Source: a virus
Taxonomy: Duplodnaviria > Heunggongvirae > Uroviricota > Caudoviricetes
Strand: one strand, 5' to 3'
DNA length: 50,942 nucleotides
IMG/VR virus record: IMGVR_UViG_2695420814_000010
This document shows, piece by piece, positions 25,698 through 49,390 of this stretch. Every line of letters starts with the position of its first letter. Within the stretch, counting starts at the first letter, position 1. A program made the position numbers and the translations under genes. The notes beneath the pieces are model-generated. The model was not told the DNA's origin. It did no database searches and saw nothing but the letters and a program-made list of their open reading frames with translations.

Positions 25698-26285
25698 TTT
25701 TCCTCACATATGTCATATAGTAAAGGATTATATATACCGTTGTTTTGGACGCTCAAACAGCGAATCAGATCAAATAAAACGCACATTTGTTAACATTTAC
25801 ACAAAGTCTGCGTGGGATATTCTGAAAGAATATCCATAATGTGGAGAGAATCTATTGAAGTGCATGGTGCCGGGTGCCTCCCGGTGAACAAAATGTTCGT
25901 GATACCTGTCGGCGACAGAAAAGGTTAATGGTATCACCCCACCGCACAGGGGGATTCACCATGCAGGAGTTTTCTTAGCAAACTCACTGCGCGCCCGGCA
26001 ACTCCCAACCACATAAAATGCGGAGTTTGTGGCATTTATGCATATAACTCGCAGGAATTATCTTAAAAAACTGATGTCGATCCGGATTAAAAAGAAGCAG
26101 GTCATCATCAGATGACTGGAAAAAAGGAAAACAAAAAATACTCATCATACAGTTTTGATTGCAGGGATGAGCCTGCTATGCACAATATGCAGAATATAAG
26201 CAAGATAAAAATATGCAGGCATATTATTTCGGATCTTGTTATTAACACAACCTTTTTAATAATCATTTGGCATACAATAAACCAG

Positions 26286-26632: not shown

Positions 26633-26663
26633 GTAAAAAAACCGCATTAAGCGGTTTTTTTAC
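26633..26663 (-). terminator. tR'-like bidirectional terminator about 80 nt downstream of Q
   Basis: AAAAAAACCGC-TTAAT-GCGGTTTTTTT: A-run and T-run flank the hairpin, so it can terminate on either strand. Confidence 0.6.
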
Positions 26664-26741
26664 GATGTCCATGTCTGCAATCCGCCTCGCGATACAGCTT
26701 TGCGAAGCATAGCAAAATTGAAGCAGTTTATACGTAAGAAA

Positions 26742-27284
26742 TCAAGCCATTTTCTCAGCAAATGATTCACGCATGGGAATATATAGGGCATACTCAGCAA
26801 CAGCTAACCAATTAGCAATCCGTTTTTCGCATGTGCTAAAACACCACTCTGGGTGTGCATCATTTAGCAATTCAGCCATTTTGCGCTTAGTCATCCCCCG
26901 CCCTTCATAGCGTTGCCGGAGAATGCAAATCAATCCTGGATGCTCTGCCAGCACCTCACTTATGACTCGATCAATACATAACGCCTCTGCATCAGTACAA
27001 TGCGCCAGCCAGCTCTTTTGCTTGCCGTTGATCATCTCTCGCAAAAACGCTTCCAGCTCAGCTTTCTCTATTCCCGCTTTTTTCATTCTGCGCAGGGCTT
27101 CATTAATGGCTGTTTTCGTCAGTTTTTTGGATGCCAACAACTGATTGAACATATTCCCTGACCTGCCACCGCCAATATACGACCAGCGCCCCCACATACG
27201 TAGTTTTCCCTGAATCCAGACACTTTCCAGCGTGGTGAGGCGAAGGTGTTCTCCGCTTTTTCCTGTATTCGTTGGGTAAATCAT
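26742..27284 (-). CDS. Putative late-gene antiterminator Q
   Basis: 180-aa ORF in the Q position: last gene of the nin region, immediately upstream of the tR'-like terminator and late genes; start overlaps the ybcO-like stop (ATGA). Confidence 0.5.
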   Translation of the reverse strand: MIYPTNTGKSGEHLRLTTLESVWIQGKLRMWGRWSYIGGGRSGNMFNQLLASKKLTKTAINEALRRMKKAGIEKAELEAFLREMINGKQKSWLAHCTDAEALCIDRVISEVLAEHPGLICILRQRYEGRGMTKRKMAELLNDAHPEWCFSTCEKRIANWLAVAEYALYIPMRESFAEKMA

Positions 27285-27571
27285 AAATGACCTTTCTTTC
27301 TCCAGATTTCTTGTGTGCGAAAAACCCCTTCAGCATGCATCAGGCGCAATTCTTCTTTGGTGTAATCGCTGGTTTTTACCCGCCCGTCGATTAGATCGTG
27401 GCATGAGCTACAGGCTATCGCCGCCTGCATATCATGTGGTTTTGTCGCTGTTCCGCACGTCCCCGCCAGCCTGTAATGCGCCAGCACAGAGGTTTCGGGA
27501 TTGTGATTGCAGTAGCCAGGGATTCTGATCTGGCACATCTGGCCTTTAGCCGCTTTACGTAAATTCACCAT
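27281..27571 (-). CDS. YbcO-like zinc-binding putative nuclease (DUF1364-like)
   Basis: 96-aa ORF LRKAAKGQMCQIRIPGYCNHNPETSVLAHYRLAG.CGT.TKP...IACSSCHDLIDGR, same length and Cys pattern as DLP12 YbcO (recalled). Confidence 0.7.
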   Translation of the reverse strand: MVNLRKAAKGQMCQIRIPGYCNHNPETSVLAHYRLAGTCGTATKPHDMQAAIACSSCHDLIDGRVKTSDYTKEELRLMHAEGVFRTQEIWRKKGHL

Positions 27572-28170
27572 TACGCAAACTCCAGTAGTTGTGCGGCCAC
27601 ATTTTCAACTTCCTCCTGAGAGGAGAATTTACGGAACAGAATCCAGTTCCACAGCACATTCAGTACAGATTTATAAACCTGCTGAAACTCGACTTCGTCC
27701 ATATTCGCAAAAGCGATGGATTTTGCCCGACGCCCACGGCTACCGTCCGGATAAATATGCTCGGTGTAAAATCCGGCCTGAATGGTTACCCACTCGCGGA
27801 AAGCCTCAAACGACTTTAGCAACGCCGTATCCCGGGTTCTACGAGTCGCAACGGTGTTAAGGTATTGCTCTGCGGCATCACTCAGGGCTGGCGTGTGTTC
27901 CCGACCAACTGATTCGCACAGGTAATCAACGAAACCAGACAGCAGTTCTCGTTCGCGAGGCGTGATCGCCCCACCGACCGGAGTCCAGTAATCGAATCCC
28001 AGTTGCAGGAGTTTGAAAAAACGCTTGTGGAATGCGTAGTTACGCACACGCTTAAAGTCTGCGTGTATCCACTCACCTATTTTGATTTGATGCAGAAAAT
28101 CGCAACTCTCCGGCGTCGCCGGGAGAAGTAAACCAGAAGAGGTTTGTTTGACCAGTTGTATATGCGCCAT
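27571..28170 (-). CDS. Conserved nin-region phage protein (DUF1367-like, tentative)
   Basis: 199-aa ORF starting MAHIQLVKQTSSGLLLPATPESCDF; an IS-truncated paralogous copy lies at 34869..35184. Confidence 0.5.
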   Translation of the reverse strand: MAHIQLVKQTSSGLLLPATPESCDFLHQIKIGEWIHADFKRVRNYAFHKRFFKLLQLGFDYWTPVGGAITPRERELLSGFVDYLCESVGREHTPALSDAAEQYLNTVATRRTRDTALLKSFEAFREWVTIQAGFYTEHIYPDGSRGRRAKSIAFANMDEVEFQQVYKSVLNVLWNWILFRKFSSQEEVENVAAQLLEFA

Positions 28171-33336: not shown

Positions 33337-33738
33337 TTACTTCTCAATTCCTGGCTGGACGACATTCGGACGCCAGCTCTCCCAGTTAAAATTCACCCAT
33401 CGCCCGCCGTTCATGGTCATGCGATCCATAATCCGCTCGCCGAGCAATGTTTTCATGGCCTCATAGTTCAGGTTTGTCAGCATCCCCACGCTGCGCATCG
33501 ACGCTGTCCGGCGATCAACAATCTGGTGCAGCACCACCTGCTCGTTTTTCGTCTCGCGCTGAATGCCAATTTCATCAAGAACCAGCAGATCCACTTCGCA
33601 TAGTTCCCGCAAAAATTTTTCGCCTGACTGCCCATCGTCATAGCTGGCGTGCAGGGCACTCATAACATCAGCCACGGTAACCACAATCACTGTCTGACCG
33701 TCTTTCAGCAGGCGATTCCCGATAGCTGCCGCTAAGTG
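33337..33738 (-). pseudogene. ydaV: DnaC-like replication protein YdaV, C-terminal fragment ending at an N-marked junction
   Basis: Encodes ...VVTVADVMSALHASYDDGQ...[12 protein letters not shown]; 33483..33738 matches 40549..40803 as far as compared by eye; sequence breaks at n (33739) into IS-internal sequence. Confidence 0.5.
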
Positions 33739-33739
33739 N

Positions 33740-34867
33740 TGAAAATCAACTTTCGATCAGTGAAGGCGCTTCCCGATTATCTCTTCCTGAAGGCACTTTA
33801 GGACAATGGGTTACCGCCGCCAGAAAAGGGCTCGGTACTCCTGGTTCCCGCACGGTGGCTGAACTGGAATCTGAAATTCTGCAACTGCGTAAGGCGTTAA
33901 ATGAAGCTCGCCTTGAGCGAGATATATTAAAAAAAGCAACAGCGTATTTTGCACAGGAGTCGCTGAAAAATACGCGTTAATCGAACAATGGCGACAACAA
34001 TTTCCCATTGAAGCGATGTGTCAGGTATTTGGTGTATCCAGGAGCGGTTATTACAACTGGGTACAGCATGAACCCTCAGACAGAAAACAAAGTGATGAGC
34101 GGCTAAAACTGGAGATTAAGGTGGCACATATCCGCACTCGCGAAACATATGGAACCCGGCGGCTCCAGACGGAGCTGGCAGAGAATGGCATCATCGTTGG
34201 TCGTGACCGACTGGCACGTCTTCGTAAGGAGCTAAGGCTACGCTGTAAGCAGAAACGCAAGTTCAGAGCGACTACGAACTCGAACCACAATCTGCCAGTT
34301 GCGCCAAATCTGCTGAACCAGACGTTCGCTCCTACAGCACCAAATCAGGTCTGGGTGGCGGACCTGACGTATGTTGCCACACAGGAGGGATGGTTGTACC
34401 TCGCTGGCATCAAAGATGTTTATACGTGCGAAATTGTCGGCTACGCCATGGGAGAGCGCATGACAAAAGAGCTGACAGGTAAAGCCCTGTTTATGGCGCT
34501 CAGGAGCCAGCGCCCACCTGCCGGGCTAATCCACCACTCTGATCGAGGTTCACAGTACTGCGCATACGATTACCGGGTCATACAGGAGCAGTCTGGTCTG
34601 AAAACATCAATGTCGCGTAAAGGTAACTGTTACGACAACGCTCCGATGGAAAGCTTCTGGGGAACGCTGAAAAATGAGAGCCTGAGCCACTATCGTTTTA
34701 ATAACCGGGATGAAGCCATCTCAGTAATACGGGAATACATTGAGATTTTCTACAATCGTCAGCGTCGTCACTCTCGTCTGGGGAATATCTCCCCGGCAGC
34801 CTTCAGGGAAAAATATCATCAGATGGCTGCTTAAAAAAAGAACAAATGGTAGTGTCCGCTATTGCCA
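33740..34867 (+). mobile_element. IS3-family (IS600-like) element, copy 1, lacking about 125 bp of the left end
   Basis: Matches 39384..40511 of the complete copy; begins inside orfA immediately after an n; right end ...GTGTCCGCTATTGCCA at 34867. Confidence 0.8.
34016..34834 (+). CDS. IS3-family transposase OrfB (DDE integrase domain), copy 1
   Basis: 272-aa ORF identical to 39660..40478; DDE-type catalytic region (WVADLTYV...HHSDRGSQY...NAPMESFW). Confidence 0.85.
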   Translation: MCQVFGVSRSGYYNWVQHEPSDRKQSDERLKLEIKVAHIRTRETYGTRRLQTELAENGIIVGRDRLARLRKELRLRCKQKRKFRATTNSNHNLPVAPNLLNQTFAPTAPNQVWVADLTYVATQEGWLYLAGIKDVYTCEIVGYAMGERMTKELTGKALFMALRSQRPPAGLIHHSDRGSQYCAYDYRVIQEQSGLKTSMSRKGNCYDNAPMESFWGTLKNESLSHYRFNNRDEAISVIREYIEIFYNRQRRHSRLGNISPAAFREKYHQMAA

Positions 34868-34868
34868 G

Positions 34869-35184
34869 TACACCTCAATTGCTCTGCGGCTTCGCTCAGA
34901 GCTGGCGTATGTTCCCGGCCTACTGATTCACACAGGTAATCAACGAAACCGGACACCAGTTTTCGTTCGCGAGGCGTGATCGCCCCACCGACCGGAGTCC
35001 AGTAATCGAAACCCAGTTGCAGGAGTTTGAAAAAACGCTTGTGGAATGCGTAGTTACACACACGCTTAAAGTCTGCGTGTATCCACTCACCTATTTTGAT
35101 TTGATGCAGAAAATCGCAACTCTCCGGCGTCGCCGGGAGAAGTAATCCGGAAGAGGTTTGTTTGACCAGTTGTATATGTGCCAT
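34869..35184 (-). pseudogene. IS-truncated paralogue of the nin-region gene 27571..28170
   Basis: Starts MAHIQLVKQTSSGLLLPATPESCDF at 35184, about 95% identical to 27860..28170, and runs into the IS right end at 34868. Confidence 0.6.
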
Positions 35185-35222
35185 CGGCTTTCTCCGGTGG
35201 CACGGTGTTACACAGCAGGAGT

Positions 35223-35510
35223 TCAATCCTGCTCAAGATTGTAGATGAGTTTATTCTTCAGCAAAAGCAGAAAACCAGCCTTAAAACCAATCTCTTTCAA
35301 AACCCGTAATGATGTGACAAATTCGTCCTCACGCAAAATAAAACCGTCCGTCAGAAGTCCATTACAAAAATAAAATAACACAGCACCGCTCTTCCTTTGT
35401 TGAGATTGCAAACATCTAATGCGGCAATGGCTGACAATCGCTCCATTCTCAACGCGCACAGCATAGAGGCCATTTTCACTAAAAATTTCACGCAATTCTT
35501 CGATTTTCAT
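35223..35510 (-). CDS. Hypothetical small protein
   Basis: 95-aa ORF between the hok locus and the truncated nin gene; no recognisable motif. Confidence 0.3.
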   Translation of the reverse strand: MKIEELREIFSENGLYAVRVENGAIVSHCRIRCLQSQQRKSGAVLFYFCNGLLTDGFILREDEFVTSLRVLKEIGFKAGFLLLLKNKLIYNLEQD

Positions 35511-35635
35511 CTTCAGAATCCTTCCAGATAAATAGCTCTCCCCTGTTCGGGGTCCATCCCTCTTCTCCCTGCGCGCTACTTAAGTGAGTCGATTCTATCT
35601 GCGAAGGTGCGCGAATCAAATTCACCGGAAATAAA

Positions 35636-35684
35636 CAACAAAAAACCCGCCGAAACGCTGAGAGATCACAGCGATGGGCGGGTT
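35636..35684 (-). terminator. Structured 3' end / terminator of hok mRNA
   Basis: Minus strand CCCGCC...GGCGGG stem with inner CGCTG/CAGCG stem, followed by TTTTTTGTTG. Confidence 0.4.
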
Positions 35685-35759
35685 AAGTGCGGGTGCGTTG
35701 AGGATGCCTGACACATCAGAGGTGGGCGGGGATGGGATCAGCTCCCCGCCCGGTCACTC

Positions 35760-35915
35760 TTACTTCCTGGATTCGTAGTCTACGAAGACAGCGACCTCCG
35801 TCTGGCCGGTTCGGATTCGTACCTCACAGAGGTCTTTCCTCGTTACCAGTGCCGTCACTATGACGGTTAAACAGATGACGATCAGGGCGATTAACATCGC
35901 CTTTTGCTGCTTCAT
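35760..35915 (-). CDS. hok: Hok/Gef family type I toxin
   Basis: MKQQKAMLIALIVICLTVIVTALVTRKDLCEVRIRTGQTEVAVFVDYESRK (51 aa) after AAGGAG; an in-frame upstream extension (to 35972) may correspond to a mok-like leader. Confidence 0.8.
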   Translation of the reverse strand: MKQQKAMLIALIVICLTVIVTALVTRKDLCEVRIRTGQTEVAVFVDYESRK

Positions 35916-36142
35916 AGCCTGCTTCTCCTTGCCTTTCGGCATGTAAGAGGCTAACCTACATGTGCAAAGCATGAAATTGGCCTCAGATTAATGTTAAGCG
36001 TCTTGCCGGACGCGTAATGTTAACTGGGGCTTTTCTCTATCTGCCTTTTGGTGTTCATGCCTGAAGCAGATAGCCTCAAGCACCCGCAGTCATTCTACTT
36101 ACCTCGCCAATATGAAATCAATCAGAAAGGTGCCCCATAAAA

Positions 36143-36829
36143 TCACTCCTTCTCTTCTTTACCGTAGTGGAGTTGACCAATTTTGATAAGAGGGCGTCCC
36201 TGAGATTTGCGGTGTAGATTGGTATCGCGCAGAGAATACACACAGCCACAATATTCCTGCTGATAGAATTTTTCGCGCTTGCTGATTTCAATCATACGGG
36301 ACGAGCCGCCCTGCTTGCGCCAGTTATAATCCCAGTACACCATGCCCGGATAATGCGCGACGGCTCGCCGCCCACAGTCGTTAACCTGCTGCATATTTTT
36401 CCAGCGTGAAATGCCCAGTGAACTGCTGATCACACTGAAACCATTTTCAGCGGCGTACAGCGCTGTCCGCTCAAAACGCATGTCAAAACACATGGTGCAA
36501 CGGATCCCTCGTTCGGGCTCCCATTCCATTCCTTTGGCTCGTTCAAACCAGTTGTCTGTGTCGTAATCAGCATCAATAAACGGCACGCCGTGTTGTTCAG
36601 CAAAGCGAATATTCTCATCCTTACGAATTAAATACTCTTTCTGAGGATGAATGTTCGGGTTGTAGAAAAAGATGGTGTAGTCGATTCCCGAGGCCTGAAG
36701 CGCCTCCATCACCTCACCGGAACATGGAGCACAGCAAGAGTGCAGTAGTAGTTTGTTTGCCCCGTTTGGGAGCTCCAATTTGGGCCGTTTGAAATCAGCA
36801 ACTGTCATAAATATGTTTATTGGGGTCAT
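36143..36829 (-). CDS. DUF208 / QueH-like protein (epoxyqueuosine reductase family, tentative)
   Basis: 228-aa ORF with [11 protein letters not shown] near the N-terminus, FFYNPNIHP, and C-terminal QEYCGC, motifs recalled from the QueH family. Confidence 0.5.
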
Positions 36830-36976
36830 AAAAATATCAAAGAGTGTAGCATTAGAACGGGGCTATCGGAAACAGATGTGTGACTGCTCCCCGCCCTTTC
36901 GGGTGGTCTCCTGATGATTTGAGGGTGCAGAAATCCCTCCGGTTAAGGATTAAATTTTTAACAGTGCTAAATTTAA

Positions 36977-37333
36977 TTATTCAGTTCTGGATTTTGTCGC
37001 CCTGCGTATCCGCGCTTTCGCGTTACGCTCAATCTGTATCAGCTTTTCTATATTTCTCCGCCTTTCCTGTTCCTCCTGGCGCAATAGCCTTACATCATCT
37101 GCCAGTCTGGTTTCTCTTTTTGCCACAGAGAGCATCCAGTCAAACGGCTCCACAACCGCACCGCAGATTTTACAGCGGACCTGACGCTCTTTTTCGTCAA
37201 CCCGTACAGAGGCGTGATGGCAATATGGTCTTTCCGATGGCTCATAAAGAAAATTAACCTGATTACGAGGGTCATCCTCTTTTACCGGAAATAAAACGAT
37301 ATTGCTTAACTCATCTTCTGGTTTTATTTCCAT
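36977..37333 (-). CDS. Hypothetical protein with Cys-His cluster
   Basis: Track ORF 36977..37390; likely start MEIKPEDELSN at 37333; motif CHHASV...CKICGAV. Confidence 0.35.
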   Translation of the reverse strand: MEIKPEDELSNIVLFPVKEDDPRNQVNFLYEPSERPYCHHASVRVDEKERQVRCKICGAVVEPFDWMLSVAKRETRLADDVRLLRQEEQERRRNIEKLIQIERNAKARIRRATKSRTE

Positions 37334-37390
37334 GCTCCTCTCCTTTGATGCGAATGCCAGCGGTAATTGAAGCCTGATAGCTAATTTCAT

Positions 37391-37813
37391 TCACAGTATC
37401 GCCTCCTGAAAATTACCCTGATAGAAAGCCAGTACACGCTGCATAGCTTCGCTCTTCCGGCACTCGCGACAGATTATATTCAGGCGCCTGTCGTAGCGGC
37501 GTATTTCTCCGTCAGGTAATGACCAGATAAGGTCCGGATCAACAACAACCGGTTTCCTCACCTTTACTCTCGAGAGTTTTTTGCGGGCGCTTTGCCAGTC
37601 CTTGCGAGCCTGTTCAGACGGGAATAAGCCGTAGCCAGAATTATATACATCACCACTTGCGACCAGTTCTATGCATAAGCGACCGACAGACGCACGACTG
37701 ATACCTGTTTCATCTGACAACTGCCGAATCGTGACCCGACCGTCCTGATGCACGAGTTCCACAATTCGCGTCTTCAGTTCTTCCCGCTGTTCGGGAGTAA
37801 AAGGTTTCGCCAT
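37391..37813 (-). CDS. Conserved phage protein, paralogue of 32121..32552
   Basis: 140-aa ORF sharing the GDVYNSGYGLFPSEQARKDW and IICRECRKSE segments. Confidence 0.45.
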   Translation of the reverse strand: MAKPFTPEQREELKTRIVELVHQDGRVTIRQLSDETGISRASVGRLCIELVASGDVYNSGYGLFPSEQARKDWQSARKKLSRVKVRKPVVVDPDLIWSLPDGEIRRYDRRLNIICRECRKSEAMQRVLAFYQGNFQEAIL

Positions 37814-37827
37814 AAATCCTCCTGAAA

Positions 37828-38574
37828 CTACTTAACAACCCTCGAATGGCTAACATTCGGACGCCAGCTCTCCCAGTTAAAATTCACCCAGCGCCCGCCG
37901 TTCATGACCATGCGATCCATCACCCGCTCGCCGAGCAATGTTTTCATCACCTCATAGTTCAGGTTTGTCAGCATCCCCACGCTGCGCATCGACGCTGTCC
38001 GGCGATCAACAATCTGGTGCAGCACCACCTGCTCGTTTTTCGTCTCGCGCTGAATGCCAATTTCATCAAGAACCAGCAGATCCACTTCGCACAGCTCCCG
38101 CAAAAATTTTTCGCCTGACTGCCCGTCGTCATAGCTGGCGTGCAGGGCGCTCATAACATCAGCCACGGTAACCACAATCACTGTCTGACCGTCTTTCAGC
38201 AGGCGATTCCCGATAGCTGCCGCTAAGTGATTCTTCCCGGTACCAGGTTTTCCGCTGAACGCAAAATTTGTACACCCGGTCATCAGTTCATCGGCGATGG
38301 ATTTCGCCTGGCTTAACGCGTATCGCTGGCCGTCGTTCTGCACCTGGTAATTCGCAAACGAGCATTTACGGTGCAACGGCTGGATGCCTGAGCGATTCAG
38401 AATTTTTTCCACCCGCAACTGGCGATTCAGGCGGTTGATCTCCTCGCTACGTTTCTGGCCTTCAGCAAGTTGCCACTCGCGCCACTCCGCTACCGTTCTG
38501 AATGGGGCGGTTACATGTGGCGGGGTCAGTCGGCGGATGCGTTCCAGAACGCCGCCTGTCGCAATATTTTTCAT
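37828..38574 (-). CDS. DnaC-like replication protein (IstB-like AAA+ ATPase), YdaV-like, second copy
   Basis: 248-aa ORF with Walker A GKPGTGKNHLAAAIG and Walker B LLVLDEIG. Confidence 0.8.
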   Translation of the reverse strand: MKNIATGGVLERIRRLTPPHVTAPFRTVAEWREWQLAEGQKRSEEINRLNRQLRVEKILNRSGIQPLHRKCSFANYQVQNDGQRYALSQAKSIADELMTGCTNFAFSGKPGTGKNHLAAAIGNRLLKDGQTVIVVTVADVMSALHASYDDGQSGEKFLRELCEVDLLVLDEIGIQRETKNEQVVLHQIVDRRTASMRSVGMLTNLNYEVMKTLLGERVMDRMVMNGGRWVNFNWESWRPNVSHSRVVK

Positions 38575-38580
38575 GGTCCG

Positions 38581-39258
38581 TTACCCCCTGAAGCCTGGCG
38601 GGATCGCACTGTCCGGCAACGAGACGGTGTTAACCTGTCGGAGCAACGTCTCAGGCCGAACACCTTTCGGCGCGAACAGGCCCTGGTATTCATTGGCGAT
38701 GCTGTGTCGAATCACCTGCTCAGGTGTAAAACCCTGCTGACGGAATTTTTCCAGTTCCCGTATCGCCCCGTTAGCGCCCTGCTCCGTTCGAATCGGTTTT
38801 CGCAATGCCTGTCTGAACCGGACCCACTCATGCCAGAGTGTTTCCGGCAACCAATCGGGCAGCTCAATAGCCTCCGGCTCGAATTTTTTAGACGCTCGTT
38901 TTTGGCGAGGGGGAGATCAGTATTTAGATCTTCCTCTTCCTCTTCCTCTGGTAACGCTTTTTGATCCGTTTGTGTAACGCTGGCAGCGTTACCTTTTCGT
39001 TTCAGTTCGCGTATTTTTGTTACTCGCTCGTTTGTAACCGCCCGTTTTTTTTAGAGCTTTTTCCGTTATGACGTTCAAAGTTAGGTAGAGAAAGCCCTCC
39101 GTCATTTTCGACCAGCCATCCAACCTGAATTAACGCATCAGCAAAACCAGACATAAAAGTGATGCGATCTATTGCACTTTTTGTAACGCCGCGAGCGTTA
39201 CAATCTGCATTACCGTCTATCATTTGTTGATCCGCCCATGCCCAGAAGCGAATAACCT
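38581..39258 (-). pseudogene. Disrupted replication initiator / replisome organiser (YdaU-like C-terminus), abutting an IS end
   Basis: 38581..38850 encodes the same C-terminal domain as 41154..41420 (...WVRFRQALRKPIRTEQGANGAIRELEKFRQQGF...); the upstream part (to 39250) is in another frame and the locus ends at the IS left end (39259). Confidence 0.45.
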
Positions 39259-39321: not shown

Positions 39322-39624
39322 ATGAGCAGAAAAACCCAACGTTACTCTAAAGAGTTCAAAGCCGAAGCTGTCAGAACGGTTCCTGAAAATCAACTTTCGA
39401 TCAGTGAAGGCGCTTCCCGATTATCTCTTCCTGAAGGCACTTTAGGACAATGGGTTACCGCCGCCAGAAAAGGGCTCGGTACTCCTGGTTCCCGCACGGT
39501 GGCTGAACTGGAATCTGAAATTCTGCAACTGCGTAAGGCGTTAAATGAAGCTCGCCTTGAGCGAGATATATTAAAAAAAGCAACAGCGTATTTTGCACAG
39601 GAGTCGCTGAAAAATACGCGTTAA
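39322..39624 (+). CDS. IS3-family transposase OrfA (HTH)
   Basis: 100-aa ORF; A7G slippery run at 39573..39580 allows a -1 shift into orfB to give the OrfAB fusion. Confidence 0.85.
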   Translation: MSRKTQRYSKEFKAEAVRTVPENQLSISEGASRLSLPEGTLGQWVTAARKGLGTPGSRTVAELESEILQLRKALNEARLERDILKKATAYFAQESLKNTR

Positions 39625-39659
39625 TCGAACAATGGCGACAACAATTTCCCATTGAAGCG

Positions 39660-40478
39660 ATGTGTCAGGTATTTGGTGTATCCAGGAGCGGTTATTACAA
39701 CTGGGTACAGCATGAACCCTCAGACAGAAAACAAAGTGATGAGCGGCTAAAACTGGAGATTAAGGTGGCACATATCCGCACTCGCGAAACATATGGAACC
39801 CGGCGGCTCCAGACGGAGCTGGCAGAGAATGGCATCATCGTTGGTCGTGACCGACTGGCACGTCTTCGTAAGGAGCTAAGGCTACGCTGTAAGCAGAAAC
39901 GCAAGTTCAGAGCGACTACGAACTCGAACCACAATCTGCCAGTTGCGCCAAATCTGCTGAACCAGACGTTCGCTCCTACAGCACCAAATCAGGTCTGGGT
40001 GGCGGACCTGACGTATGTTGCCACACAGGAGGGATGGTTGTACCTCGCTGGCATCAAAGATGTTTATACGTGCGAAATTGTCGGCTACGCCATGGGAGAG
40101 CGCATGACAAAAGAGCTGACAGGTAAAGCCCTGTTTATGGCGCTCAGGAGCCAGCGCCCACCTGCCGGGCTAATCCACCACTCTGATCGAGGTTCACAGT
40201 ACTGCGCATACGATTACCGGGTCATACAGGAGCAGTCTGGTCTGAAAACATCAATGTCGCGTAAAGGTAACTGTTACGACAACGCTCCGATGGAAAGCTT
40301 CTGGGGAACGCTGAAAAATGAGAGCCTGAGCCACTATCGTTTTAATAACCGGGATGAAGCCATCTCAGTAATACGGGAATACATTGAGATTTTCTACAAT
40401 CGTCAGCGTCGTCACTCTCGTCTGGGGAATATCTCCCCGGCAGCCTTCAGGGAAAAATATCATCAGATGGCTGCTTAA
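39660..40478 (+). CDS. IS3-family transposase OrfB
   Basis: 272-aa DDE-domain ORF; the -1 frame is open from the slippery site at about 39575. Confidence 0.85.
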   Translation: MCQVFGVSRSGYYNWVQHEPSDRKQSDERLKLEIKVAHIRTRETYGTRRLQTELAENGIIVGRDRLARLRKELRLRCKQKRKFRATTNSNHNLPVAPNLLNQTFAPTAPNQVWVADLTYVATQEGWLYLAGIKDVYTCEIVGYAMGERMTKELTGKALFMALRSQRPPAGLIHHSDRGSQYCAYDYRVIQEQSGLKTSMSRKGNCYDNAPMESFWGTLKNESLSHYRFNNRDEAISVIREYIEIFYNRQRRHSRLGNISPAAFREKYHQMAA

Positions 40479-40511
40479 AAAAAGAACAAATGGTAGTGTC
40501 CGCTATTGCCA

Positions 40512-40548: not shown

Positions 40549-41147
40549 CCCACGCTGCGCATCGACGCTGTCCGGCGATCAACAATCTGGTGCAGCACCA
40601 CCTGCTCGTTTTTCGTCTCGCGCTGAATGCCAATTTCATCAAGAACCAGCAGATCCACTTCGCATAGTTCCCGCAAAAATTTTTCGCCTGACTGCCCATC
40701 GTCATAGCTGGCGTGCAGGGCACTCATAACATCAGCCACGGTAACCACAATCACTGTCTGACCGTCTTTCAGCAGGCGATTCCCGATAGCTGCCGCTAAG
40801 TGGTTCTTCCCGGTACCAGGTTTTCCGCTGAACGCAAAATTTGTACACCCGGTCATCAGTTCATCAGCGATGGATTTCGCCTGACTCAACGCGTATCGCT
40901 GCGCTTCGTTCTGCACCTGGTAATTCGAAAACGAGCATTTGCGGTGCAATGGCTGGATGCCAGAGCGATTCAGAATTTTTTCCACCCGCAACTGACGATT
41001 CTGACGGTTGATCTCCTCACAACGTTTCTGGCCTTCGGAAAGTTGCCACTCGCGCCACTCCGCTACCGTCTTGAATGGCGCGGTTACATGTGACGGGGCC
41101 AGTCTGCGGATACGTTCAAGAACGTCGCCTGTCGCAATATTTTTCAT
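40549..41147 (-). CDS. ydaV: DnaC-like replication protein YdaV (C-terminus lost in the N gap)
   Basis: MKNIATGDVLERIRRLAPSHV... with Walker A GKPGTGKNHLAAAIG; ORF runs into the N-run. Confidence 0.7.
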
Positions 41148-41153
41148 GGTCAG

Positions 41154-42011
41154 TTACCCCCTGAAGCCTGGCGGGATCGCACTATCCGGTAACGAGACGG
41201 TGTTAACCTGTCGGAGTAACGTCTCAGGTCGAACACCTTTCGGCGCGAACAAGCCCTGGTATTCATTGGCGATGCTGTGTCGAATCACCTGCTCAGGTGA
41301 AAAACCCTGCTGGCGGAATTTTTCCAGCTCCCGTATCGCCCCGTTAGCGCCCTGCTCCGTTCGAATCGGTTTTCGCAATGCCTGGCGAAATTCAACCCAC
41401 TCACGCCAAAGCGAGACAGAAATCCAGTTCGGCAAAGCAATATCCAGAGGGTCAAACTTTTTGACACCTCGATTCCCCCGGGGGGGATTTAGGGGGGGAT
41501 CTGTTTTTAGATCTTTATCTGTATCTTTATTAGTTGCCTTTGTGTTGACATCATGTTCAAACACCACTTCAACATCTGTTTGAACACCTGTTAAATTTCT
41601 CTCTTGTTTTGTTTGAACATCTGCTTCCTTTCTGCTTCTTCTGGCCTGAACAGATGCTTTTCCTGCGGCTGATTTTTTGGTTAATTTTTCCCTGACTGAT
41701 GCCAGATCTTCCTCAATCCGAAGATGCACCCATTCCTCGCCGTTATCGCAAAAAAACTCCTGCAAGGATGGTTCAACATCAGCCCATCGCTCGTTAGTCA
41801 GACGGGCAATTTTTGCCAGCCTGTTTTTAGGTATTGGCTTTCCTGTTTGCCAGTAATTGAACATCAGCAACAAATACGCACCATGCTCCTCTGCTGACAA
41901 ATGCATGGTGTCAGCCAGGTAATCAGCTATGTACAGTTGCATGTATGGTAATGCGGCCATAATTGCCCCGTATGATGCTGCCCGGTGGCTTAGAATAAGC
42001 ACAAACAGCAT
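41154..42011 (-). CDS. ydaU: Replication initiator / replisome organiser YdaU-like
   Basis: 285-aa ORF; N-terminal ...YMQLYIADYLADTMHLSAEEHGAYLLLMFNYWQTGKPIP, conserved C-terminal domain shared with 38581..38850. Confidence 0.65.
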   Translation of the reverse strand: MLFVLILSHRAASYGAIMAALPYMQLYIADYLADTMHLSAEEHGAYLLLMFNYWQTGKPIPKNRLAKIARLTNERWADVEPSLQEFFCDNGEEWVHLRIEEDLASVREKLTKKSAAGKASVQARRSRKEADVQTKQERNLTGVQTDVEVVFEHDVNTKATNKDTDKDLKTDPPLNPPRGNRGVKKFDPLDIALPNWISVSLWREWVEFRQALRKPIRTEQGANGAIRELEKFRQQGFSPEQVIRHSIANEYQGLFAPKGVRPETLLRQVNTVSLPDSAIPPGFRG

Positions 42012-49201: not shown

Positions 49202-49390
49202 ATGTATAAAATTACCGCCACTATTGAAAAGGAAGGTGGCACTCCTACTAACTGGACAAGATATTCAAAATCTAAACTAACGAAATCAGAATGCGAAAAA
49301 ATGCTCTCAGGTAAAAAAGAAGCAGGCGTTTCCAGAGAGCAGAAAGTAAAACTGATAAATTTTAATTGCGAGAAACTTCAGTCCTCGTGA
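49202..49390 (+). CDS. ydaC: YdaC-like small protein
   Basis: MYKITATIEKEGGTPTNWTRYSKSKLTKSECEKMLSGKKEAGVSREQKVKLINFNCEKLQSS (62 aa), internal start of track ORF 49130..49390. Confidence 0.5.
   Translation: MYKITATIEKEGGTPTNWTRYSKSKLTKSECEKMLSGKKEAGVSREQKVKLINFNCEKLQSS

What the first reader, a model, noticed from the sequence alone, without database searches (positions are those of the whole stretch)
35760..36829. queH-like (DUF208) gene directly upstream of a hok type I toxin in the second nin-like segment
The 228-aa ORF carries motifs I associate with the QueH epoxyqueuosine reductase family ([25 protein letters not shown]). E. coli normally uses QueG, so a phage-borne QueH-like enzyme would be accessory, possibly affecting tRNA queuosine or deazaguanine metabolism. 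It is immediately followed by a canonical Hok toxin (51 aa) with an upstream in-frame mok-like extension and a structured 3' end, so the two may have been acquired together.
Basis: partly seen in the sequence, partly recalled or inferred. Interest (0 to 1): 0.5.

Follow-up and report, generated by a model that had tools for sequence, protein, structure and literature searches.

The report
Prophage QueH gene beside hok/sok toxin
A prophage fragment carries an intact copy of the vitamin-B12-independent tRNA-queuosine enzyme QueH next to a textbook hok/mok/sok toxin-antitoxin locus; both are real, both are already named this way in about a thousand E. coli genomes, and only the physiological role of the extra QueH is untested.

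Summary
Window 36143..36808 (minus strand; the longest ORF runs to 36829) encodes a full-length QueH/DUF208 epoxyqueuosine reductase: Pfam PF02677 E 1.9e-65, PDB 7LC5 E 5e-22, all six family-invariant cysteines and the CCAPC motif present. Immediately downstream, 35640..36121 is a complete hok/mok/sok type I toxin-antitoxin locus.

The pair is common and already annotated. queH occurs in 995 of 5426 complete E. coli genomes, named QueH by PGAP, and is contiguous with this hok in 741. One isolated phage (HannyBb) and 189 IMG/VR contigs also carry it. queG is in all 5426 genomes, so queH is always a second, non-orthologous enzyme.

Its closest relatives (79-86% aa) are chromosomal, non-phage genes of Erwinia, Providencia, Photorhabdus and others. 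dN/dS among E. coli and phage alleles is about 0.05.

queH and hok are separable modules. Kiwa or an NgoMIV-type restriction-modification cassette replaces hok in some prophages.

Most likely mechanism (inferred): a captured housekeeping QueH that completes queuosine without B12.

Verdict: ordinary and already annotated, with a modest untested physiological question.

The parts
36143..36808 (-). queH coding sequence (221 aa from M8; the longest ORF extends to an upstream ATG at 36829, 228 aa)
   Evidence: Pfam PF02677 E 1.9e-65, full length. PDB 7LC5 QueH E 5e-22. Six invariant Cys (C32, C33, C111, C114, C194, C196) plus CCAPC. PGAP CDS WP_012421537.1 'epoxyqueuosine reductase QueH' at the same coordinates. 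dN/dS about 0.05.
36809..36882 (-). Upstream block of about 75 nt that travels with queH in three different prophage contexts. It holds two candidate extended -10 promoter motifs: TGCTACACT at 36843..36851 and TGATATTTT at 36831..36839. No Shine-Dalgarno sequence precedes either ATG.
   Evidence: Alignment of the window, E. coli SCU-301 and phage HannyBb. Motif coordinates. TGCTACACT and ATAAACnTATTT also lie upstream of the chromosomal Erwinia queH. Pattern match only; no transcript data.
36092..36121 (-). hok promoter (TTGATT, 18 nt spacer, TAGAAT), starting 22 nt after the queH stop codon
   Evidence: Promoter scan, 9 of 12 matches. It places the transcript start at the first base of the Rfam hit, 36085.
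35640..36085 (-). Predicted full-length hok mRNA (about 446 nt). The 5' element GGGUGCUUGAGG (36074..36085) pairs with CCUCAACGCACCC (35691..35703), as in the tac/fbi closure of plasmid R1 hok mRNA. A terminator hairpin plus U6 lies at 35640..35684.
   Evidence: Minimum-free-energy and centroid folds pair the two ends; -191.5 kcal/mol, z -8.07 against 100 shuffles. Coordinates.
35910..36085 (-). Match to Rfam RF01794 'sok'. It lies on the hok sense strand and ends at the hok AUG, so it covers the hok mRNA leader to which Sok is antisense.
   Evidence: 117 bits against a gathering score of 59, E 4e-26, model positions 1-157 of 157.
35760..35972 (-). mok-type ORF (70 aa), in frame with and containing hok
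   Evidence: ORF list. PHROG 251 'MokW-like host killing' E 3e-32. The same 70-aa ORF is annotated as MokW-like in phage HannyBb.
35760..35915 (-). hok toxin coding sequence (51 aa)
   Evidence: Pfam PF01848 E 9.8e-23, profile 1-42 of 42. PGAP 'type I toxin-antitoxin system toxin HokD'.
35929..36036 (+). Candidate sok gene: weak promoter TTGCCT (35929..35934), 17 nt spacer, TAACCT (35952..35957); RNA of about 35964..36036 with a long hairpin and a CUUUUCU tail. It is antisense to the mok start region (mok ATG at 35970..35972).
   Evidence: Hairpin fold -31.9 kcal/mol, z -4.5. Coordinates. The promoter fell below the scan threshold. Inferred from position and the R1 paradigm.
36977..37813 (-). 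Upstream neighbours, same strand: a zinc-ribbon-like hypothetical protein (36977..37333 by PGAP) and a DUF977/Ren-like protein (37391..37813), which mark the end of the replication module
   Evidence: Pfam, PHROGs 1621 and 142, PGAP annotation.

Best explanation
Two independent accessory modules sit side by side in the cargo slot between the replication genes (O-like, DnaC-like, DUF977/Ren-like) and the nin/Q-type genes of a Rac/Qin-like lambdoid prophage.

Module 1 is a working QueH: a [4Fe-4S], cobalamin-independent tRNA epoxyqueuosine(34) reductase. It was captured fairly recently from the chromosome of another member of the Enterobacterales, Erwinia-like, probably together with its own promoter and leader. 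In an E. coli lysogen it duplicates the reaction of the host's cobalamin-dependent QueG. The last step of queuosine synthesis on tRNA-Asn, -Asp, -His and -Tyr (oQ to Q) would then no longer depend on imported vitamin B12.

Module 2 is a canonical hok/mok/sok type I toxin-antitoxin. A stable, folded hok mRNA is kept closed by 5'-3' pairing. Hok translation is coupled to mok. A short unstable antisense Sok RNA blocks the mok start. Loss of the locus, or shut-off of host transcription, releases the toxin.

What is shown: family membership, intact catalytic motifs, purifying selection, distribution, modularity and RNA anatomy.

What is inferred: enzyme activity in E. coli, the gene's own promoter, a benefit tied to B12, and Sok expression.
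For: QueH identity:
- PF02677 E 1.9e-65 over the full profile.
- 7LC5 QueH E 5e-22 over residues 27-203.
- All 24 columns that are invariant across nine QueH sequences down to about 32% identity are kept, including six Cys. CCAPC is the motif in eight of the nine; T. maritima has CCAPD.

Housekeeping origin:
- Best hits are 79-86% identical proteins named QueH in Erwinia, Providencia, Proteus, Photorhabdus, Gibbsiella, Ewingella, Pantoea and others.
- These lie among core genes such as purL/glrK, tmcA/purC, with no phage genes nearby.
- The Erwinia upstream region shares TGCTACACT and ATAAACnTATTT-ATG with the prophage gene, although synonymous sites are saturated.

Selection:
- 13-27 synonymous against 3-8 non-synonymous differences between E. 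coli and phage alleles; dN/dS 0.05-0.07.
- 985 of 995 carriers hold at least 80% of the gene, and it was annotated as a CDS in all 40 sampled rows.

Redundancy: queG is in 5426 of 5426 genomes.

B12 logic:
- QueG needs cobalamin, and DUF208/QueH is the cobalamin-independent alternative (PMC5615194; PMC6461909).
- oQ34 rather than Q34 is found in tRNA of bacteria grown in glucose-salts medium lacking B12 (PMC6850298, citing Frey 1988).

hok/sok.

Modularity.
Against: - No experiment or transcript data were available, so activity of this protein in E. coli is not shown.
- Neither candidate start codon has a Shine-Dalgarno sequence. The promoter motifs are pattern matches, and the consensus scan found no sigma-70 site upstream of queH on its strand.
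- Upstream regions of other genera do not align, so 'captured with its promoter' rests on Erwinia alone.
- From my own knowledge, not checked here: no marked growth phenotype is known for oQ in place of Q in E. coli, so the selective benefit is unclear.
- No terminator separates queH from the hok promoter, so read-through into hok is possible, with unknown effect.
- NCBIfam has no model that matched QueH at E <= 0.01.
- The founding QueH papers could not be read here.
Confidence: 0.72

Rival explanations
1. queH and hok/sok form one functional, co-acquired unit: the toxin-antitoxin addicts the cell to the queH cargo, or QueH takes part in the toxin system.
For: They are contiguous in 741 of the 995 queH-carrying genomes and move as one 1.2-kb block, about 35678..36879, at roughly 94% identity. 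65 of 80 IMG/VR loci show the same adjacency. No terminator lies between the queH stop and the hok promoter.
Against: The hok module (35678..36140) ends just before the queH stop and occurs in about 4700 genomes, about 4000 of them without an adjacent queH. queH is found with Kiwa or an NgoMIV-type restriction-modification cassette in place of hok. hok/sok needs no protein partner in the R1 paradigm (established knowledge). Chromosomal QueH homologues have no hok neighbour.
Confidence: 0.08
2. QueH is a phage-cycle gene rather than a lysogenic-conversion gene. It would be transcribed only from the early rightward operon after induction, to tune tRNA-Q status for phage translation.
For: It has the same orientation as the cro, O-like, DnaC-like and nin genes and sits where lambda nin genes sit. 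No consensus sigma-70 promoter was found upstream on its strand. A functional isolated phage, HannyBb, keeps it.
Against: The conserved upstream block with extended -10-like motifs is shared with a chromosomal Erwinia gene. The lytic cycle is short relative to tRNA turnover, so little oQ-tRNA would be converted (inference). The prophage tRNAs in the near-identical record are Ile, Arg, Thr and Gly, none of them a Q-tRNA.
Confidence: 0.15
3. QueH here acts on something other than tRNA-oQ, for example a 7-deazaguanine in DNA, or it serves defence or counter-defence like its neighbours.
For: The slot directly downstream holds defence cargo: hok/sok, Kiwa or restriction-modification. 7-Deazaguanine DNA modifications are known in phages (PMC6884629).
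Against: No PADLOC model matches QueH. No dpdA/tgt, queA or preQ0-synthesis gene is annotated in the near-identical prophage. The protein is 79-86% identical to housekeeping QueH and under strong purifying selection. oQ is made only on tRNA by QueA (established pathway).
Confidence: 0.05

Closest known systems
QueH (DUF208, PF02677, COG1636) epoxyqueuosine reductase; solved structure from Thermotoga maritima, PDB 7LC5
   Same: Full-length domain match, six conserved cysteines, the NPNI(H/Q)P and YCGC motifs, and similar length. 79-86% identical to proteins named QueH in other Enterobacterales.
   Different: It is carried by a lambdoid prophage in a host that already has QueG. The motif is CCAPC where T. 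maritima has CCAPD, but Cys is the commoner residue in the sample aligned. Activity of this protein is untested.
[quoted passage not shown]
   Same: Predicted to catalyse the same reaction, oQ34-tRNA to Q34-tRNA (PMC5372724).
   Different: Non-orthologous and unrelated in sequence. QueG needs B12 and QueH does not (PMC5615194). queG is core, 5426 of 5426 genomes; queH is accessory, 995 of 5426.
hok/mok/sok of plasmid R1 and the chromosomal and phage hok loci (hokA-E, MokW/HokW of Stx phages)
   Same: A 51-aa Hok/Gef toxin, an in-frame mok, a leader matching Rfam RF01794, 5'-3' closure of the mRNA, an antisense hairpin RNA over the mok start, and an intrinsic terminator. Related hok loci sit in the same place in Stx, Rac and mEp460-type phages.
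   Different: Nothing essential. NCBIfam equivalog models for HokA and the Hok subfamily score below their cut-offs, so the PGAP gene label 'hokD' is a family-level name.
Phage 7-deazaguanine DNA-modification clusters (DpdA with FolE, QueC, QueD, QueE)
   Same: Phage-borne genes drawn from the queuosine pathway.
   Different: Those clusters make preQ0-type bases for DNA and lack QueA, QueG and QueH. The authors state that no homologues of these three were found in the viruses they analysed (PMC6884629). Here only the last tRNA-specific step is present.

Membership tests
QueH / DUF208 (PF02677) | Pfam model match above the gathering score, over the whole domain | tested here: met
   220.6 bits against 23.5; residues 27-201 match profile positions 1-174 of 175.
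QueH / DUF208 (PF02677) | Sequence similarity to an experimentally solved QueH | tested here: met
   7LC5_A E 5.3e-22; residues 27-203 against chain residues 4-178.
QueH / DUF208 (PF02677) | Conserved metal-ligand cysteines: CC(A)P(C/D), RCxxC and YCGC | tested here: met
   C32, C33, C36, C111, C114, C194 and C196 are present. Six of them are invariant in the nine-sequence alignment. That these residues bind the cluster is taken from memory of Li et al. 2021, which could not be read.
QueH / DUF208 (PF02677) | Catalyses oQ-tRNA to Q-tRNA without cobalamin | not testable with these tools
   Needs complementation of a queG deletion and LC-MS of tRNA nucleosides.
hok/mok/sok type I toxin-antitoxin | Hok/Gef toxin peptide of about 50 aa | tested here: met
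   PF01848 E 9.8e-23, profile 1-42 of 42.
hok/mok/sok type I toxin-antitoxin | Overlapping upstream mok reading frame | tested here: met
   70-aa ORF 35760..35972 in frame with hok. PHROG 251 MokW-like E 3e-32.
hok/mok/sok type I toxin-antitoxin | Conserved structured hok mRNA leader (Rfam RF01794) | tested here: met
   117 bits against 59, full model, on the hok strand.
hok/mok/sok type I toxin-antitoxin | Long-range 5'-3' (tac/fbi-type) pairing that closes the full-length mRNA | tested here: met
   36074..36085 pairs with 35691..35703 in both the minimum-free-energy and centroid folds; z -8.07. This is a prediction, not a probing result.
hok/mok/sok type I toxin-antitoxin | Antisense Sok RNA with its own promoter and terminator over the mok start region | tested here: inconclusive
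   A hairpin plus U tract is present on the plus strand. The promoter hexamers TTGCCT and TAACCT match only 4 of 6 and 3 of 6, and were not reported by the scan.
hok/mok/sok type I toxin-antitoxin | Toxicity of Hok and its neutralisation by Sok | not testable with these tools
   Needs induction and northern-blot experiments.
Anti-phage defence systems (PADLOC-DB) | Match of QueH to any defence-system protein model | tested here: not met
   0 families at E <= 0.01 for QueH. The same search recognised KwaA and KwaB in locus L002.

The most novel reading that the evidence does not exclude
The prophage QueH is kept at the edge of a defence-cargo slot because the oQ or Q state of the anticodon matters in a conflict. 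Converting oQ34 to Q34 independently of B12 (and so independently of the BtuB phage and colicin receptor) might change the susceptibility of tRNA-Tyr, -His, -Asn and -Asp to anticodon nucleases, or bias translation for or against superinfecting phages. QueH would then be a conflict gene rather than a metabolic spare part.
Probability: 0.07. Interest if true: 0.7.

Novelty: already known. Interest (0 to 1): 0.27.

Why it matters
If the enzyme is active, about one in five E. coli strains, including ST131, ST95/APEC O1, strain 042 and some O157 and O111 isolates, can finish queuosine synthesis without vitamin B12. Strains that rely on QueG alone carry epoxyqueuosine when B12 is missing (PMC6850298). 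That would be a simple, testable case of a prophage supplying a cofactor-independent isozyme for a tRNA modification.

It would also qualify the published statement that viruses carry no QueA, QueG or QueH homologues (PMC6884629). It gives PHROG family 3217, labelled 'unknown function', a name.

The hok/sok locus itself adds nothing new. The slot it occupies is a recombination site where defence cassettes are exchanged.

Tried and rejected
1. preQ1-type riboswitch in the queH leader. I saw a superficial likeness (GCUACAC...CCCCAAUAAAC) but could find no P1 stem. A targeted Rfam scan of 36780..36990 at E <= 10 gave only three irrelevant weak hits. Rejected.

2. Conservation of the queH upstream region across genera. 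MAFFT of nine upstream regions gave no conserved columns. Only Erwinia shows the shared motifs, so 'captured with its promoter' stays tentative.

3. A defence role for QueH or its neighbours. There are no PADLOC hits for QueH, the zinc-ribbon protein, the 95-aa protein or Hok.

4. NCBIfam gave no QueH hit at E <= 0.01 and only sub-threshold Hok hits.

5. Literature. Searches for QueH plus prophage or phage, and for DUF208 plus E. coli, found no paper on a prophage-borne QueH; several hits were author names or unrelated DUF numbers. Zallot 2017, Li 2021 and Miles 2011 are not held.

6. The terminator scan found none in 35500..37100.

7. I did not run structure prediction, fold search or the large representative-protein search. 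The sequence evidence was already decisive.

Full report
**1. What is in the sequence**

Both features lie on the minus strand. It matches Pfam PF02677 (QueH) at E 1.9e-65, covering profile positions 1-174 of 175. It also matches the solved Thermotoga maritima QueH (PDB 7LC5) at E 5.3e-22 over residues 27-203.

I aligned it with T. maritima QueH, two enterobacterial homologues and five distant homologues (31-49% identity) taken from phage-collection records. Twenty-four columns are invariant, and the window protein keeps all of them. They include six cysteines: C32, C33, C111, C114, C194 and C196. The position that is Asp in T. maritima (CCAPD) is Cys (CCAPC) in all eight other sequences.

The likely start is the second ATG, at 36808, giving 221 aa. 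PGAP uses it, and the Erwinia homologue begins there. The six codons between the two ATGs change non-synonymously in phage HannyBb.

**2. The hok locus**

hok is 35760..35915 (51 aa; PF01848 E 9.8e-23). A 19-codon in-frame extension gives the 70-aa mok-type ORF reaching 35972 (PHROG 251 'MokW-like host killing', E 3e-32).

Rfam RF01794 ('sok') matches 35910..36085 at 117 bits, against a gathering score of 59. The match is on the hok strand and ends at the hok AUG, so it describes the hok mRNA leader. Sok itself would be the antisense within that leader.

- **Promoter.** A promoter-like site (TTGATT, 18 nt, TAGAAT; 36121..36092) places the transcript start at the first base of the Rfam match.
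- **mRNA fold.** The 450-nt RNA 36085..35636 folds at -191.5 kcal/mol, z -8.07. Its first 12 nt (36074..36085) pair with 35691..35703, and a terminator hairpin plus U6 lies at 35640..35684. This is the 5'-3' closure known for R1 hok mRNA (established knowledge).
- **Antisense RNA.** On the plus strand, 35964..36036 forms a long hairpin followed by CUUUUCU, at -31.9 kcal/mol, z -4.5. It overlaps the mok start codon. Its promoter (TTGCCT/TAACCT) is weak, so Sok is probable but not shown.

**3. Context in the window**

The block 34878..39258 is 99.6% identical to a prophage of E. coli FDAARGOS_944. Read along the minus strand of the window, that prophage carries these genes in order:

- Cro/CI-type regulators and YdaT
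- an O-like protein
- DnaC-like YdaV (window 37828..38574)
- DUF977/Ren-like (37391..37813)
- a zinc-ribbon-like hypothetical (36977..37333)
- queH, then hokD
- a 95-aa hypothetical (35223..35510)
- DUF1367, DUF1364 and DUF1133
- four tRNAs (Ile, Arg, Thr, Gly), then the lysis and structural genes

No other queuosine or deazaguanine gene is annotated there. In the window, the block is bracketed by two direct copies of an IS3-family element, and the left copy truncates the DUF1367 gene.

**4. Distribution**

| Feature | Complete E. coli genomes (of 5426) |
|---|---|
| queG | 5426 |
| hok of this type | 4731 |
| queH | 995 |
| queH contiguous with this hok (at least 80% of 35700..36829) | 741 |

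queH is almost always single-copy, and 1014 of its 1017 places are chromosomal. PGAP names it 'epoxyqueuosine reductase QueH' in every sampled row.

Among 50,697 phage records, only Escherichia phage HannyBb carries a close copy (96.5% aa), labelled 'hypothetical protein', with a MokW-like gene downstream. IMG/VR holds 189 contigs with a close relative. PHROGs lists the family as phrog_3217, 'unknown function'.

**5. Modularity**

Most E. coli matches to the pair cover window 35678..36879, a 1.2-kb block. hok-only matches end at about 36140, just before the queH stop. Upstream, homology among three different contexts begins about 75 nt before the ATG.

What lies downstream of queH varies:

- In 80 IMG/VR loci, it is hok in 65. 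In 13 only the first 161-171 nt of the hok module remain before the sequence diverges; in the one inspected (L048) what follows is a C5 cytosine methyltransferase plus an NgoMIV-type endonuclease. Two loci are too short to tell.
- In E. coli SCU-301 it is KwaA/KwaB (Kiwa), joined about 15 nt into the hok transcript.

So queH and hok are separate modules. The queH-hok arrangement looks ancestral to the variants, and the slot is a swap site for defence cargo.

**6. Origin and selection**

The best protein matches (79-86% identity) are named QueH in Erwinia, Providencia, Proteus, Photorhabdus, Gibbsiella, Ewingella, Pantoea, Sodalis, Arsenophonus and others. Six of them were examined, and each lies among core chromosomal genes with no phage genes nearby.

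Between E. coli and phage alleles there are 13-27 synonymous and 3-8 non-synonymous differences, giving dN/dS of 0.05-0.07. Against Erwinia or Providencia, synonymous sites are saturated while dN is 0.09-0.13.

The Erwinia gene shares TGCTACACT (an extended -10-like motif) and ATAAACnTATTT before the ATG with the prophage gene. Other genera do not.

**7. Mechanism**

Shown: the locus encodes an intact, selectively maintained member of the QueH family in a host that always has QueG, next to a complete hok/mok/sok locus.

From the literature:

- QueA and then QueG or QueH mature preQ1-tRNA to Q-tRNA (PMC5372724).
- QueG requires cobalamin, and QueH is cobalamin-independent (PMC5615194; PMC6461909).
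- Bacteria grown in glucose-salts medium without B12 carry oQ34 instead of Q34 (PMC6850298, citing Frey 1988).

Inferred: the prophage enzyme lets lysogens complete Q without B12. It may be expressed from its own promoter. Any fitness gain would appear under B12 limitation or loss of B12 uptake. E. coli's inability to make B12 de novo is established knowledge that I did not check here.

**8. Novelty**

The sequence features are already annotated with these names in RefSeq. Hok loci in the same position of lambdoid phages are well known.

I found no paper on a prophage-borne QueH. One survey of viral deazaguanine genes reported no QueA, QueG or QueH homologues (PMC6884629). Co-occurrence of QueG and QueH is documented in some streptococci (PMC12632869).

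The finding is therefore real and correctly interpreted, but ordinary. What remains open is the physiology.

Noticed in passing
window 33740..34867 and 39384..40511; also 33485..33738 = 40549..40802: Two direct copies of an IS3-family insertion sequence, 100% identical over 1128 bp, bracket the 4.4-kb queH-hok block. The left copy lacks about 125 bp of its left end and truncates the DUF1367 gene at 34878. A 254-bp piece of a DnaC-like gene is duplicated just outside the two copies. This suggests IS-mediated rearrangement of tandem or mosaic prophage remnants.
   Followed up: partly
L048 3669..5861; L002 2196..3835: The position just downstream of queH is a swap site for defence cargo. An NgoMIV-type restriction-modification pair (PF00145 and PF09015) or Kiwa KwaA/KwaB replaces the hok coding region, while the hok promoter and part of its leader remain.
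   Followed up: partly
window 36143..36829 (protein): PHROGs v4 lists this protein family as phrog_3217, 'unknown function'. Its profile starts at residue 41 of the ORF, after the CCAPC motif, which suggests that many phage gene calls for it start too late.
   Followed up: no
window 49208..49386 (-) and 25808..25994 (-): Rfam matches above the gathering score to RalA, the antitoxin sRNA of the RalR/RalA type I system of Rac-type prophages (225 bits), and to STnc100 (86.6 bits).
   Followed up: no
window 26634..28170, 33362..33738, 37853..38838, 40549..41515: Several diverged copies (86-97% identity) of nin-region and DnaC-like/O-like segments occur in the window, so it holds parts of at least two or three related lambdoid prophages.
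   Followed up: no
window 36977..37390 (-): The ORF just upstream of queH is a conserved phage protein of unknown function (phrog_1621, E 5e-56) with a weak zinc-ribbon match (PF08271, below its cut-off). It is present upstream of queH in only 12 of 80 IMG/VR loci; in most loci DUF977 abuts queH directly.
   Followed up: no
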